A DNA stretch of 64,000 nucleotides from a virus (Duplodnaviria; Caudoviricetes), in IMG/VR virus record IMGVR_UViG_3300023275_000004, positions 32,001 through 96,000 of that record; one strand, given 5' to 3'. The position numbers and the translations under genes were made by a program. Below the pieces are notes generated by a model. The model did no database searches and was not told the DNA's origin. It saw only the letters and a list, made by a program, of their open reading frames with translations. Shown one piece after another: positions 33,362 to 53,226 of the stretch (positions within the stretch are counted from its first letter, which is position 1; each line of letters opens with the position of its first letter).

Positions 33362-34396
33362 TTAGCAACTACCAGGACCACCATAGCGGATTGTGCGAGT
33401 GCTTTGAACAGGCGGAGTAGCCGTACTGTTCTGACGGAATCCCTGATACCAAGTTGGCTGAGTAGCAAAAGCATTCAGCACAACATTAGTTGATGGCTGC
33501 CCCGAATACGTAACGTTCGATAGACGCGCGCCAGCAGTAGGAGTAGCCATTACAGGTGTAGGACCAAGACCCATATCAGCACAGGTAGCTGGTGTTCCAG
33601 CGGCAACCTCACCAAAGGTCTGGAAAAAGTCTACCTGCTTGAACGTAGTTACACTAGGAGTAGCACCTGTCCAGATAGTATCTGGAAAATTACCAATCCA
33701 GTCAGCTGTGCCATCGTTTGGACCAAAACCAATCCACCAAGCTGTAGCAGTGCGCTCAATCTGGAAGACCATCTCAGTGTTAGCGTTGGCATAAGCAGTA
33801 AGATCAGCGCCAGCGTTGAACGTAGTATTGGCAGCGTTATCAACCCAACCACAACCATTGTAGCATGTTTCCTGACCATTTACCCAATGATAAACAAAAA
33901 GACGAACTTTGTTGTCACCATTAGTTGACTGATCACGGGTTACACCAACCTCAACAGCTTGCTGCTCGTCTGCTGACTGCACAGCATCTTCGTTAAGAGT
34001 ATGATAATCCCAAGTTGGATTGATATACGGTGTACTTACTGTGTTCAGTGAGGACACTCCTGTGGGAGGAGTAGTTGGCCTCTGCTTTCCACCAGCGTAA
34101 ATATAACTTACTGCCCCAGGAGTCCTCTTTGCACGTAAATGTGAAGGTGGCACAGGAGGTCTTCCCTTTGCCCCAGACCCTGTAGTTTTTGCAAATGCGG
34201 CGCTAGGATCTCCACTGATGACCTTTCCGGCCTTAGCTGGATCTCCCTTTGGGATAGGGATAGAAATCCCGACCCTAGTAGTGTCACTAGCCGCTGCTTG
34301 AGCTGCTGTGGGTACTGCCTGTGCCGGGGATACCCCGATAGTAAGCGAAGCTAGCAAAGTAAGTCCTGCTAGTGCTCCCATAAAACGATTTTTCAT
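33362..34396 (-). CDS. Secreted neprosin-family (DUF239) glutamic prolyl endopeptidase
   Basis: Signal peptide, pro-region, AVEVG, RLFVYHW, CYNGCGWV, IGNFP..IW, FGEV, DMG motifs; start revised to MKNRF. Confidence 0.85.
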   Translation of the reverse strand: MKNRFMGALAGLTLLASLTIGVSPAQAVPTAAQAAASDTTRVGISIPIPKGDPAKAGKVISGDPSAAFAKTTGSGAKGRPPVPPSHLRAKRTPGAVSYIYAGGKQRPTTPPTGVSSLNTVSTPYINPTWDYHTLNEDAVQSADEQQAVEVGVTRDQSTNGDNKVRLFVYHWVNGQETCYNGCGWVDNAANTTFNAGADLTAYANANTEMVFQIERTATAWWIGFGPNDGTADWIGNFPDTIWTGATPSVTTFKQVDFFQTFGEVAAGTPATCADMGLGPTPVMATPTAGARLSNVTYSGQPSTNVVLNAFATQPTWYQGFRQNSTATPPVQSTRTIRYGGPGSC

Positions 34397-34425
34397 ATCG
34401 TTCCCTTTCGACGCCGTTGTTGGCG

Positions 34426-34508
34426 TGCCGATGACAGGAGTCGAACCTGCACTTCCTTTCGGAAACAACGTTCTTAGCGTTGCGTGTCTACCATTTCACC
34501 ACATCGGC
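34426..34508 (-). tRNA. tRNA-Leu(AAG)
   Basis: CAACG-CTAAGAA-CGTTG; Leu-type D and variable arms. Confidence 0.88.
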
Positions 34509-35332: not shown

Positions 35333-35410
35333 TGGACTATACGGGACTCGAACCCGTGAACCTCCTGCAAAATCAGGTGTTGTTCGCCGACCTTCTCAAC
35401 TTTATTGCCC
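35333..35410 (-). ncRNA. tRNA-Ala-like RNA (G3:U70) with degenerate anticodon arm
   Basis: GGGC/GTCC-A acceptor; canonical T arm; 4-bp stem with 6-nt loop. Confidence 0.7.
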
Positions 35411-35411
35411 G

Positions 35412-35492
35412 TGGAGCTGTAGGGAGTCGAACCCTAGTCCTTCACCGTTCCGACGTGCGGCTTTCTAGTGAAGTCGAATACCGTCCAGCCCC
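35412..35492 (-). ncRNA. Mini tmRNA-like RNA (tRNA-like domain only)
   Basis: GGGGCTG-GACGGTATTCGAC 5' end; GGAC-TAGGGTTCGACTCCCTA-CAGCTCCA 3' end; only a short capped helix between them. Confidence 0.8.
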
Positions 35493-35728
35493 TCAGCTAC
35501 AGCAGGAACCTTATTCCCTACGGTACTGTAGCACTACCGATCCACCCGATGCTAGCTGCCCTGCCCTTAGGCTCTGGTGGATAGGGCACTAAAACCTAGA
35601 TAGTCTCGGAAGACATCTAGGAACTAGTGTGAATGAGAAAACAGGCCCTACCTGCATTTAATCCTAAGTTTTGGAGGCTTAGACTTCCTCGCTCACAAGA
35701 ACTACTTTACACTAACTGCCTAGCTCTG

Positions 35729-36613
35729 TCAAGCTACCGAAAGCTTAGTAGAAGCTAGGGCAGACTTCACGGCAGCAAGAACATCTTCCTTAGAAGCTGC
35801 CTTGTCTACTGGAAGCTTAGCTACTACCGCAGAAGCTAGCGCGCTAACAAATGCTGGGTTATTAGCGATTGCTGCTCCCAATGCTACCTCATCAACATCT
35901 ACGCCACTAAGTGCAGCTACGGCTGTCTTGAGAGTAGCAACGTCGGTTGCTAGCGCACTCAAGGCTGCTGGTAGTGCATTAAGACGATAGCTGATCAAGG
36001 TCTTAGCCTGCCACTCAGGATTAGCTGGATCTCCTGAAGGCATGTAGTCAATATCCCATACTGCCTTTGCAATGTCCTGTGCTGATGGCATATCCTCATC
36101 TCCCAAATACTCTTCTAGCGTCTGACCCTTTAGAACTGACAGAATGGCATCCATTGCTTTTCTATCATTTACGTACCTTCTACGAACTTCTAGGTGTACG
36201 TGCCATTTATGGTCATCGCTAGCTGTGCCTACTGTTCCAGTAACTACGTCGTAGCGCCCCGGACTTCCATTTCCGTCCCAGCCATTCCAAGCGTTAATGT
36301 ACTTCATACGCTCATCTGTGGCTCTGTTCTGCCAAGCTGCTTTCAATCTTGCGTGACACTTTTTCATGTCCGTCAAGTTAAGCGTCATATCTACGGCCGA
36401 GGCCATATTTCTAGGCCAGTCACCAGGAGGAGCCTTGTCATCTTTTCTGGTTACTGAGTAGTTATCAGAAGGCTGATCCTGAATTGAGATATGATAGCCG
36501 CCTCTAGCGGCATGAGCTGCGTCTCCTACGATTCCAGAGATCGCGGCAGAGGGATAAAGTTTCTCCCATTCATTTGACAGATAAACTAATTGTGCTGGTG
36601 CTGCTGTTGACAT
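35729..36613 (-). CDS. Endolysin (Zn peptidase-type catalytic domain plus helical C-terminus)
   Basis: SGIVGDAAH, GGYH, ASAVD, H.WHVH motifs of actinomycete phage lysins. Confidence 0.75.
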   Translation of the reverse strand: MSTAAPAQLVYLSNEWEKLYPSAAISGIVGDAAHAARGGYHISIQDQPSDNYSVTRKDDKAPPGDWPRNMASAVDMTLNLTDMKKCHARLKAAWQNRATDERMKYINAWNGWDGNGSPGRYDVVTGTVGTASDDHKWHVHLEVRRRYVNDRKAMDAILSVLKGQTLEEYLGDEDMPSAQDIAKAVWDIDYMPSGDPANPEWQAKTLISYRLNALPAALSALATDVATLKTAVAALSGVDVDEVALGAAIANNPAFVSALASAVVAKLPVDKAASKEDVLAAVKSALASTKLSVA

Positions 36614-41567: not shown

Positions 41568-41682
41568 TGCCTCGGCTAAGGAGTTGAACCCTGCAAACCG
41601 CTATCACAAGTTTCTAGAATCTTGTGCTTAAGCACCGGCCGGATACTTAAGACTAGCTGCTCTTCCATTGAGCTATCGAGGC
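41568..41682 (-). ncRNA. tRNA-like RNA with bifurcated anticodon domain
   Basis: Acceptor, D and T arms; GCTA/TAGC stem encloses two hairpins. Confidence 0.75.
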
Positions 41683-42801: not shown

Positions 42802-42883
42802 AGCACTTAGAGGGAATCGAACCCTTGACCGTAAGGACAGGTTTTGCAGACCTGCGGCAGCCCACCAGCTACCTGCTAAGCGC
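42802..42883 (-). tRNA. tRNA-Cys(GCA), possible 8/4 fold
   Basis: Loop CTGCAAA, U73, 6-bp D stem. Confidence 0.8.
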
Positions 42884-48608: not shown

Positions 48609-48779
48609 CGCGTGTAGAAGGATTTTAACCCCCGACCACTATTGGCGATTTCGCTACTTACCTGTAATCCTTAAACGTTGTCAGACTCAGGAGTTTTCAC
48701 TAATAACGTTATCCAATAGCCGCTCTGTTACATCCGCAGATAATTCAGATTTTCCTTCTGACTTCGGGCGCATACACAC
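48609..48779 (-). ncRNA. Expanded tRNA-like RNA (~170 nt)
   Basis: GTGTGTA/TACACGC acceptor; T-like arm; GCTATTGG/CCAATAGT stem with a large insert. Confidence 0.65.
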
Positions 48780-53154: not shown

Positions 53155-53226
53155 GTACGACGACAGGACTCGAACCTGCAACACCGGCTTATATGCCAGG
53201 GCTTTACCCACTTAAGCTACGCCGCT
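53155..53226 (-). ncRNA. Atypical tRNA with 6-nt anticodon loop
   Basis: CTGGC-ATATAA-GCCGG; canonical D and T arms. Confidence 0.7.

What the first reader, a model, noticed from the sequence alone, without database searches (positions are those of the whole stretch)
35412..35492. ~81-nt 'tmRNA without a message': a stand-alone tRNA-like domain
Seen: the 5' end GGGGCTG-GACGGTATTCGAC and the 3' end GGAC + T-arm + CAGCTCC-A match the tmRNA termini. These include the G3:U70 Ala identity pair, no D stem, the UUCGAC element and the short linker that SmpB binds. Only helix TTCACT/GGTGAA and a 20-nt cap lie between them, with no tag ORF and no pseudoknots. Known: bacterial and phage tmRNAs are about 300-400 nt, and TLD-only forms are known to me from jakobid and oomycete mitochondria. 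Inference: this RNA could sequester SmpB and block host trans-translation. Alternatively it could rescue stalled ribosomes without adding a proteolysis tag, for example when host defences cleave phage mRNA.
Basis: partly seen in the sequence, partly recalled or inferred. Interest (0 to 1): 0.88.

Follow-up and report, generated by a model that had tools for sequence, protein, structure and literature searches.

The report
Phage tag-less mini-tmRNA gene
This uncultured 125-kb phage carries a real 81-base gene for only the alanine-accepting, tRNA-like end of the bacterial ribosome-rescue RNA (tmRNA); the type is already known from mycobacteriophage DS6A and is common but mostly unannotated in phages, so this is a new member of a known kind.

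Summary
Window 35412-35492 (minus strand) is a complete tmRNA tRNA-like domain (TLD). It has a 7-bp acceptor stem with G3·U70 and A73, the UUCGAC element, a 7-bp P2a helix, a GGAC linker and a T arm. It has no tag reading frame and no pseudoknots.

- **Scores:** Rfam tmRNA 54.8 bits (cut-off 47), tRNA 23.3 (cut-off 29), mt-tmRNA none.
- **Not new in kind:** a "TLD only" tmRNA is published for mycobacteriophage DS6A. A similar RNA inhibits E. coli tmRNA, perhaps by titrating SmpB (PMC4131195, PMC11915505).
- **Family:** the window RNA and DS6A's share even the cap hairpin. A model built without either hits both (71.6 and 59.8 bits). Relatives occur in 84 IMG/VR contigs and 82 cultured Streptomyces phages, where they are unannotated or, in a few records, called tRNA-Leu.
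- **Structure:** across 62 distinct sequences 15 of 22 pairs covary, while G1-C72, G2-C71 and G3·U70 never change.
- **Partners:** the phage encodes no SmpB, CCA-adding enzyme, Pth or ArfB, so host factors must serve.

Most likely it is alanylated and engages host SmpB and stalled ribosomes without adding a degradation tag. This function is inferred, not shown. This scan has reported the same kind on at least 98 other genomes.

The parts
35412..35492 (-). Mini-tmRNA (TLD-only tmRNA) gene, 81 nt from G1 to discriminator A73
   Evidence: Rfam RF00023 54.8 bits, above the cut-off of 47. Family model R1 71.6 bits, E about 1e-17. tRNA model 23.3 bits, below the cut-off of 29.
35486..35492 (-). Acceptor stem, 5' strand GGGGCUG
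   Evidence: Pairs with CAGCUCC at 35413-35419, including G3·U70. In the family G1-C72, G2-C71 and G3·U70 are invariant in 62 of 62, and pairs 4-7 covary.
35473..35485 (-). D-loop analogue GACGGUAUUCGAC, with no D stem; it contains the tmRNA UUCGAC element
   Evidence: Matches the Rfam tmRNA consensus GGaUUCGAC. GG..UUCGAC is conserved in the family.
35465..35472 (-). P2a helix, 5' strand UUCACUAG (A27 bulged)
   Evidence: Pairs with CGGUGAA at 35441-35447. All 7 P2a pairs show compensatory changes across 62 sequences.
35448..35464 (-). Cap: AAAG + 3-bp stem CCG/CGG with loop CACGU + AA
   Evidence: The AAAG-CCN-loop-NGG-AA motif is shared with DS6A, Karimac and the IMG/VR members. The third stem pair covaries.
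35441..35447 (-). P2a helix, 3' strand CGGUGAA
35437..35440 (-). GGAC linker between P2a and the T arm
   Evidence: Matches the Rfam tmRNA consensus cGGAC. GGAC is the commonest linker in the family, 28 of 58.
35420..35436 (-). T arm UAGGG-UUCGACU-CCCUA
   Evidence: T-stem pairs 1 and 2 covary in the family.
35413..35419 (-). Acceptor stem, 3' strand CAGCUCC, followed by discriminator A at 35412 and an unencoded CCA (trailer CGG)
   Evidence: 33 of 34 tRNA genes of the phage also lack an encoded CCA, and their trailers mostly begin CG.
35704..35732 (-). Promoter-like site TTGACA-17-TAAAGT, about 210 nt upstream, just after the stop of ORF 35729-36613. It is only a candidate start for the transcript that holds the mini-tmRNA.
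   Evidence: Consensus scan only; the number of sites in the region is no higher than in shuffles.
35333..35410 (-). Adjacent tRNA-Ala-like RNA that starts 2 nt after the mini-tmRNA discriminator. It has G3·U70, A73 and a good T arm, but an aberrant anticodon arm (4 bp plus a 6-nt loop). It is a neighbour and probably co-transcribed; a functional link is not shown.
   Evidence: tRNA model 20.8 bits, below the cut-off. Fold, alignment to tRNA-Ala genes. Model R1 does not hit it.

Best explanation
This is a gene for a TLD-only ('tag-less') tmRNA of the mycobacteriophage DS6A type.

**Proposed steps**
1. It is transcribed within the phage's tRNA array and cut out by host tRNA-processing enzymes.
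2. The host CCA-adding enzyme completes its 3' end.
3. Host AlaRS charges it with alanine through G3·U70 and A73.
4. Its D-loop analogue, the GGAC junction and P2a helix let it bind host SmpB (and EF-Tu), so it enters the empty A site of ribosomes stalled on broken mRNAs in place of host tmRNA.
5. It can accept the nascent chain. Because it has no resume codon or tag frame, no degradation tag is added.

The net effect is competition with host trans-translation. Products of stalled ribosomes escape tagging, and SmpB is occupied.

**Shown here:** the gene, its structure, its family, and selection on the alanine identity set.

**Inferred:** expression, charging, SmpB binding, ribosome entry, and the fate of the peptidyl-RNA.
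For: **Identity**
- tmRNA model 54.8 bits against a cut-off of 47, matching both TLD halves. tRNA model 23.3 bits against 29.
- Model R1, built from 12 other members, gives 71.6 bits for the window RNA and 59.8 for DS6A. Ordinary tRNAs score 37 or less.
- The window RNA and DS6A share the cap sequence, roughly GAAA(G/A)CCGCACG..CGG.AC.

**Real structured RNA**
- On 62 distinct sequences 96.5% of cells are paired against 66.9% in shuffles. 15 of 22 pairs have compensatory changes.
- Slid-register controls give 38-55% paired.

**Selection for alanylation**
- G1-C72, G2-C71 and G3·U70 are invariant in 62 of 62, while pairs 4-7 vary freely. A73 is present in 57 of 58.

**tRNA-like processing**
- It lies in a same-strand array of 37 tRNA-type genes.
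- Its CG trailer resembles those of the phage's tRNA genes, 33 of 34 of which lack an encoded CCA.
- About 20 of 54 relatives lie within 300 nt of tRNA genes.

**Dependence on the host**
- No SmpB, CCA-adding enzyme, Pth or RF-1/ArfB domain is found in this 98%-complete genome. No SmpB is found in five other carrier phages.

**Literature**
- A similar TLD-only RNA strongly inhibits E. coli tmRNA, perhaps by titrating SmpB (PMC4131195 and PMC11915505, citing Mao et al. 2009).
- Peptidyl transfer to a TLD-only tmRNA occurs in vitro (Shimizu and Ueda 2006, cited in PMC3895274).
Against:
- **Inhibition may not need charging.** PMC4131195 summarises the published inhibition as independent of chargeability, so ribosome entry is not required for an effect.
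- **Co-occurrence with a full tmRNA.** Cultured Streptomyces phages such as Karimac, and the IMG/VR genome G001, carry the mini form together with a full-length tag-encoding tmRNA. This is awkward if the mini form simply shuts trans-translation down.
- **Biased alignment.** The covariation alignment was fitted to the model, and the members were collected with sequence patterns that fixed part of the T arm and cap.
Confidence: 0.55

Rival explanations
1. It is a pure SmpB sponge. The RNA acts off the ribosome by binding host SmpB and so starves host tmRNA of its cofactor. Charging and peptidyl transfer are irrelevant.
For: PMC4131195 summarises Mao et al. [quoted passage not shown] The phage has no SmpB of its own.
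Against: The alanine identity set (G3·U70, A73, G1-C72, G2-C71) is invariant in 62 of 62 and 57 of 58 members, while neighbouring acceptor pairs covary freely. This points to selection on charging. In addition, phages that carry their own full-length tmRNA also keep the mini form.
Confidence: 0.25
2. It is a helper for tag-less ribosome recycling. The RNA increases rescue capacity for the phage. It frees ribosomes stalled on mRNAs cut by host degradation or defence nucleases, with drop-off or hydrolysis of the peptidyl-RNA by host Pth or ArfB, rather than inhibiting rescue.
For: The Ala identity is conserved. In-vitro peptidyl transfer to a TLD-only RNA is reported. The mini form coexists with full-length phage tmRNAs in Streptomyces phages, which suggests these phages benefit from rescue. 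Organellar CDS-less tmRNAs are retained together with SmpB (PMC11915505).
Against: No release mechanism is encoded by the phage: no Pth and no RF-1/ArfB domain. The only experimental result on record for this class is inhibition of tmRNA.
Confidence: 0.15
3. It is an aberrant or suppressor tRNA: tRNA-Ala, or the 'tRNA-Pyl (CTA)' that ARAGORN calls. It would decode codons in the normal way.
For: ARAGORN reports tRNA-Pyl(cta) at 35411-35500. Some Streptomyces phage records annotate the homologue as tRNA-Leu.
Against: The tRNA model scores 23.3 bits, below its cut-off of 29, against 54.8 for the tmRNA model. There is no D stem and no anticodon arm. The central helix and cap covary as P2a plus a hairpin, with no 7-nt anticodon loop.
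Confidence: 0.02
4. It is a remnant with no function: a decayed phage tmRNA, or an attP fragment of the host ssrA gene.
For: Phages often integrate into ssrA and carry its 3' end (PMC10865867). Related phages carry full-length tmRNAs.
Against: Both acceptor strands are present, and they covary in 62 distinct sequences of a constant 77-81 nt size. No tyrosine integrase is found in the genome. Karimac's mini form has a different acceptor stem from its own full-length tmRNA, so it is not a recent deletion copy.
Confidence: 0.03

Closest known systems
'TLD only' (CDS-less) tmRNA of Mycobacterium phage DS6A (tmRNA Website tmID 11587 / Phage__Mycobacterium.9; Mao et al. 2009, Hudson et al. 2014 PMC4131195, PMC11915505)
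   Same: The architecture and size are the same (about 80 nt): G3·U70 acceptor stem, D-loop analogue ending in GAC, short P2a helix, T arm and A73. The cap is nearly the same (DS6A GAAAACCGCACGCGGUAC; window GAAAGCCGCACGUCGGAAC). Model R1 hits both. Neither phage encodes SmpB.
   Different: DS6A is a 60-kb temperate siphovirus, and its gene stands alone between protein genes (NC_023744 28478-28560). Here the gene sits in the tRNA array of a 125-kb phage and is followed directly by a tRNA-Ala-like RNA. DS6A's linker is GCAC and its P2a has 5 bp. It scores below the Rfam cut-off (43.2 bits), whereas the window RNA scores above it (54.8).
Unannotated mini-tmRNA of cultured Streptomyces phages (Stanwilliamsviridae, cluster BE; e.g. 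Karimac NC_048724 86164-86244)
   Same: It has the same family cap (GAAAGCCGACAAUGGAAC), G3·U70 and A73, lies inside a tRNA array, and belongs to a phage of about 130 kb with roughly 50% GC.
   Different: Karimac's UUCGAC element is degenerate (GUGUGAC), and it scores 42.1 bits on Rfam tmRNA. These phages also carry a full-length tmRNA with a tag (94.6 bits; tag ANS...ALAA). The window phage has none.
Standard bacterial tmRNA (Rfam RF00023)
   Same: The two ends of the molecule match: acceptor stem with G3·U70, UUCGAC, P2a, GGAC, T arm and ACCA-type end.
   Different: About 300 nt are missing: the resume codon, the tag reading frame and the pseudoknots. No tag-like frame exists in the 238 nt upstream either.
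Mitochondrial tmRNA of jakobids and oomycetes (Rfam RF02544) and the ~65-bp CDS-less plastid tmRNAs
   Same: The concept is the same: a tmRNA reduced to its tRNA-like domain, without a tag frame (PMC11915505).
   Different: RF02544 gives no match at E <= 10. The mitochondrial genes are usually permuted. These are organellar genes kept alongside a nucleus-encoded SmpB, not a viral gene acting on a host system.

Membership tests
tmRNA, standard form (RF00023) | tRNA-like domain: 7-bp acceptor stem with G3·U70, discriminator A, T arm | tested here: met
tmRNA, standard form (RF00023) | D-loop analogue with UUCGAC and a GGAC linker flanking helix P2a (the region that SmpB binds in solved TLD-SmpB structures, from established knowledge) | tested here: met
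   The alignment to the Rfam consensus shows GGUAUUCGAC, P2a and GGAC.
tmRNA, standard form (RF00023) | Score at or above the curated gathering threshold | tested here: met
   54.8 bits against 47. The score comes from the two ends only.
tmRNA, standard form (RF00023) | mRNA-like domain: a resume codon and a tag reading frame that ends in a stop | tested here: not met
   Only 17 nt lie between the P2a strands. About 300 model positions are deleted. There is no tag-like ORF upstream and no full-length tmRNA elsewhere in the genome.
tmRNA, standard form (RF00023) | Pseudoknots PK1-PK4 | tested here: not met
   They are absent from the element. The upstream 208 nt fold no better than shuffles (z -1.46). 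A truncated-model alignment that includes the upstream region scores only 22.1 bits.
Phage TLD-only tmRNA (DS6A type) | About 80 nt consisting of the TLD plus a short capped P2a helix, with no CDS | tested here: met
Phage TLD-only tmRNA (DS6A type) | Sequence and structure homology to the DS6A RNA | tested here: met
   The two share the cap and overall layout. Model R1, built without either, scores the window RNA 71.6 bits and DS6A 59.8 bits.
Phage TLD-only tmRNA (DS6A type) | Inhibits host tmRNA or binds SmpB | not testable with these tools
   Known only from the literature, for a similar molecule in E. coli.
Phage TLD-only tmRNA (DS6A type) | Expressed as a discrete RNA and charged with alanine | not testable with these tools
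Indirect support: the Ala identity set is invariant in 62 of 62.
mt-tmRNA (RF02544) | Match to the curated model | tested here: not met
   No match at E <= 10 in the whole genome.
tRNA (RF00005) | Cloverleaf with D arm and anticodon arm; score at or above 29 bits | tested here: not met
   23.3 bits. There is no D stem or anticodon loop. ARAGORN's tRNA-Pyl call needs a different, shifted 5' end.

The most novel reading that the evidence does not exclude
The phage mini-tmRNAs form one old, widespread family with its own conserved cap motif (AAAG-CCN-tetraloop-NGG-AA) and a strictly conserved alanine identity. Some phages keep it beside a full-length tag-encoding tmRNA. On this reading it is not a crippled tmRNA or a simple SmpB sponge. 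It would be a distinct, charged effector that gives stalled ribosomes a tag-less exit or reprogrammes host trans-translation, with the cap serving as a specific recognition element.
Probability: 0.3. Interest if true: 0.6.

Novelty: new member of a known kind. Interest (0 to 1): 0.3.

Why it matters
**Biology.** Trans-translation is the main ribosome-rescue and protein-tagging system of bacteria. A phage RNA that takes over its entry step without adding the tag would be a compact way to manipulate host quality control.

**What is already known.** The principle has been on record since the DS6A case, so this window adds a member rather than a concept.

**What this analysis adds**
- The family is large and strongly covarying.
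- It keeps the alanine identity set invariant.
- It is present but unannotated or mis-annotated (tRNA-Leu, tRNA-Pyl) in 82 cultured Streptomyces phages. These phages offer a safe, tractable system for the missing experiments.

**Annotation.** ARAGORN calls this locus an amber-suppressor-like tRNA-Pyl, which could wrongly suggest stop-codon recoding.

Tried and rejected
- **mt-tmRNA model RF02544:** no match.
- **Synteny through the upstream 294-aa protein:** four IMG/VR relatives at 42-53% identity have no tRNA or tmRNA within 3 kb. This was uninformative.
- **'Three pseudoknots' upstream (another first-reader note):** not supported.
  - The fold is not better than shuffles.
  - There is no tag ORF.
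  - The tmRNA model aligned over that region scores 22.1 bits against 54.8 for the mini form alone.
  - Family members have unrelated 5' flanks, often tRNAs.
- **Genome-contig scan with the cap/T-arm pattern:** it mostly returned class II tRNAs and the 3' ends of full-length tmRNAs. Only about 7 true minis were found, in MAG or genome contigs labelled Spirochaetaceae, Butyrivibrio, Sideroxyarcus, Novosphingobium, Bullifex and Actinomyces. Host range therefore stays open.
- **attP-fragment reading:** rejected. Both acceptor strands are present and covary, and there is no tyrosine integrase.
- **Phage-encoded partners:** SmpB, CCA-adding enzyme, Pth and RF-1/ArfB are all absent.
- **MAFFT alignment A3:** it misplaced the 5' acceptor strand because the D-loop length varies. 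It was replaced by a gap-free seed (A4) and a model-based alignment (A6).
- **Mao et al. 2009:** the paper could not be read. Its content is cited only through PMC4131195 and PMC11915505.
- **Closest cultured relative:** by DNA polymerase I it is Microbacterium phage Magritte at 36.7% identity. Its best tmRNA-model hit is an ordinary tRNA-Ala.

Full report
**What is there.** On the minus strand, window 35492 down to 35412 reads as follows:
- acceptor strand GGGGCUG;
- a 13-nt D-loop analogue ending in UUCGAC;
- helix strand UUCACUAG;
- cap AAAG-CCG-CACGU-CGG-AA;
- helix strand CGGUGAA;
- linker GGAC;
- T arm UAGGG-UUCGACU-CCCUA;
- acceptor strand CAGCUCC;
- discriminator A.

The acceptor stem has seven pairs with G3·U70. 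Rfam's tmRNA model matches 35409-35492 from its first to its last position, with about 300 central positions deleted. The score is 54.8 bits against a gathering score of 47, E 8.7e-19 for the window. The same stretch scores 23.3 bits on the tRNA model, below its cut-off of 29. The mitochondrial tmRNA model gives nothing. ARAGORN mislabels the locus as tRNA-Pyl(cta) at 35411-35500.

**Context.**
- The window lies in an IMG/VR virus record of 125,618 bp, estimated 98% complete.
- ARAGORN tRNA-type genes, all on the minus strand, and the element lies among them.
- Only 1 of 34 tRNA genes encodes CCA, and the usual trailer after the discriminator begins CG. The mini-tmRNA's trailer is CGG, so it looks like one more unit of the array, to be processed like a tRNA.
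- The genome has no full-length tmRNA and no tyrosine integrase.
- It also lacks SmpB, a CCA-adding enzyme, peptidyl-tRNA hydrolase and any RF-1/ArfB domain. Every partner would have to come from the host.
- A promoter-like hexamer pair lies at 35732-35704, right after the stop of ORF 35729-36613. This is only a consensus match.
- By DNA polymerase I the nearest cultured phage is Microbacterium phage Magritte at 36.7% identity. The host is unknown.

**It is already a known kind.** Hudson, Lau and Williams (PMC4131195) list "Mycobacterium phage DS6A (TLD only)". They state that a similar molecule, chargeable or not, strongly inhibits tmRNA, perhaps by titrating SmpB, citing Mao et al. 2009. The 2025 tmRNA database paper (PMC11915505) repeats this and counts only 9 "Standard, no CDS" sequences among 97,179.

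I located the DS6A gene at NC_023744 28478-28560, where it is unannotated. Aligned with the window RNA, it has the same layout and nearly the same cap: GAAAACCGCACGCGGUAC against GAAAGCCGCACGUCGGAAC.

**The family.**
- A strict pattern for a short TLD found five more in IMG/VR, scoring 48-76 bits on the Rfam tmRNA model.
- A pattern made of the cap plus the T arm found 84 contigs. They hold 54 distinct RNAs of 77-81 nt.
- A BLAST search with the Karimac copy found homologues in 82 cultured Streptomyces phage records of about 126-136 kb, including cluster BE1 and Stanwilliamsviridae phages such as Karimac, Jay2Jay, Samisti12 and Mildred21. Most of these are unannotated, and a few are annotated as tRNA-Leu.
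- I built covariance model R1 from 12 members, excluding both the window RNA and DS6A. It scores the window RNA 71.6 bits (E about 1e-17) and DS6A 59.8 bits, while ordinary tRNAs reach at most 37 bits.

**Covariation.** On the model-based alignment of 62 distinct sequences:
- 96.5% of cells form standard pairs, against 66.9% in shuffles and 38-55% when the partner column is slid.
- 15 of 22 pairs show changes on both sides, including all seven P2a pairs.
- G1-C72, G2-C71 and G3·U70 never vary.
- A73 is present in 57 of 58.

Two caveats apply. The members were collected with patterns that fix parts of the cap and T arm, and the alignment is fitted to the model. However, the acceptor stem and P2a were not part of the cap/T-arm pattern that collected most members.

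**Mechanism.** The conserved parts are those that, in tmRNA, serve AlaRS (G3·U70, A73), EF-Tu (acceptor and T arm) and SmpB (D-loop analogue, GGAC and the P2a junction). This assignment rests on established knowledge of TLD-SmpB structures. Published work shows that a TLD-only RNA can accept the nascent chain in vitro (Shimizu and Ueda 2006, as cited in PMC3895274). It also shows that a TLD-only RNA inhibits tmRNA in E. coli.

I therefore favour a charged competitor. It would be processed from the tRNA array, given CCA and alanine by host enzymes, bound by host SmpB, and delivered to ribosomes stalled on broken mRNAs. There it would accept the chain but offer no frame to resume on, so no degradation tag is added.

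The strict conservation of the alanine identity set argues for charging, and so against a pure off-ribosome sponge. The published charge-independent inhibition keeps the sponge model alive.

Whether the outcome helps the phage by freeing ribosomes or simply blocks host rescue is open. Karimac and the complete IMG/VR genome G001 carry the mini form together with a full-length tag-encoding tmRNA. The window phage and G002 carry the mini form alone. The coexistence fits poorly with a plain shut-off of trans-translation.

**Rejected readings.**
- Ordinary or suppressor tRNA: rejected on model scores, the absence of an anticodon arm, and the way the central helix covaries.
- attP fragment or decayed tmRNA: rejected because both acceptor strands covary, the size is constant, there is no tyrosine integrase, and Karimac's mini form and full-length tmRNA have different acceptor stems.
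- Upstream 35493-35728 as the missing pseudoknot or message domain: not supported. The fold z-score is -1.46, there is no tag-like frame, and the tmRNA model scores lower when forced over it. Relatives have unrelated upstream flanks.

**Earlier scan notes.** Notes of this scan report the same kind on at least 98 other genomes, with the same closest known case, DS6A. I reached DS6A independently from the literature, and those notes agree with my result.

**Verdict.**
- The feature is real and the description accurate.
- It is a new member of a known kind, and its function is inferred rather than shown.

Noticed in passing
window 35333-35410 (-): A 78-nt tRNA-Ala-like RNA starts 2 nt after the mini-tmRNA discriminator. 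It has G3·U70, A73 and a perfect T arm, one acceptor mismatch, a weak D arm, and an anticodon arm of 4 bp with a 6-nt loop (CCUG-AUUUUG-CAGG). The tRNA model gives 20.8 bits, the fold z-score is -2.1, and model R1 does not hit it. In IMG/VR locus L022 a normal tRNA-Ala(GGC) starts 2 nt after the mini-tmRNA.
   Followed up: partly
window 35411-35500 (-): ARAGORN calls the mini-tmRNA locus 'tRNA-Pyl, anticodon cta'. Homologues in a few Streptomyces phage records are annotated tRNA-Leu and the rest are unannotated. Such calls could wrongly suggest amber suppression.
   Followed up: yes
window, all tRNA genes: 33 of 34 tRNA genes lack an encoded CCA, and most have the trailer CG(T/C/G) right after the discriminator. 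The phage encodes no CCA-adding enzyme.
   Followed up: partly
window 41568-41682, 42802-42883, 48609-48737 (-): These are sub-threshold tRNA-model hits at 21.4, 23.5 and 13.9 bits. Two of them are 115 and 129 nt long. They may be interrupted or degenerate tRNA genes (genome coordinates minus 32000).
   Followed up: no
window 53155-53226 (-): ARAGORN reports 'tRNA-???' with a 2-nt anticodon (at). Rfam tRNA gives 34.8 bits.
   Followed up: no
L011 3304-3425 (Karimac) and L012 1881-2007 (Wofford): tRNA-model hits of 122-127 nt at 33-34 bits lie in unannotated spacers of the Streptomyces phage tRNA arrays. They may be intron-containing tRNAs.
   Followed up: no
L009 5916-6012 (-): A Pistol ribozyme match (50.7 bits, cut-off 34.5) lies about 2 kb from another mini-tmRNA on IMG/VR contig 3300025131_000728.
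   Followed up: no
family alignment: There is co-variation outside the helices. All 8 members whose D-loop analogue ends in GCC instead of GAC have the linker GUAC instead of GGAC. This suggests a conserved tertiary or non-Watson-Crick contact at the P2a junction.
   Followed up: partly
L122, L135, L155, L184 and others (bacterial genome contigs): Full-length tmRNA 3' ends on contigs labelled Chitinophagaceae, Eubacteriales, Oscillospiraceae and Clostridia carry GAAAGCC-NNNN-GGAA just 5' of the P2a 3' strand and GGAC. This resembles the mini-tmRNA cap and may hint at how the mini form arose.
   Followed up: no
window 33362-34468 (-): A 368-aa ORF inside the tRNA array matches Pfam Neprosin (E 1.3e-14). 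Another first-reader note also flagged it.
   Followed up: no
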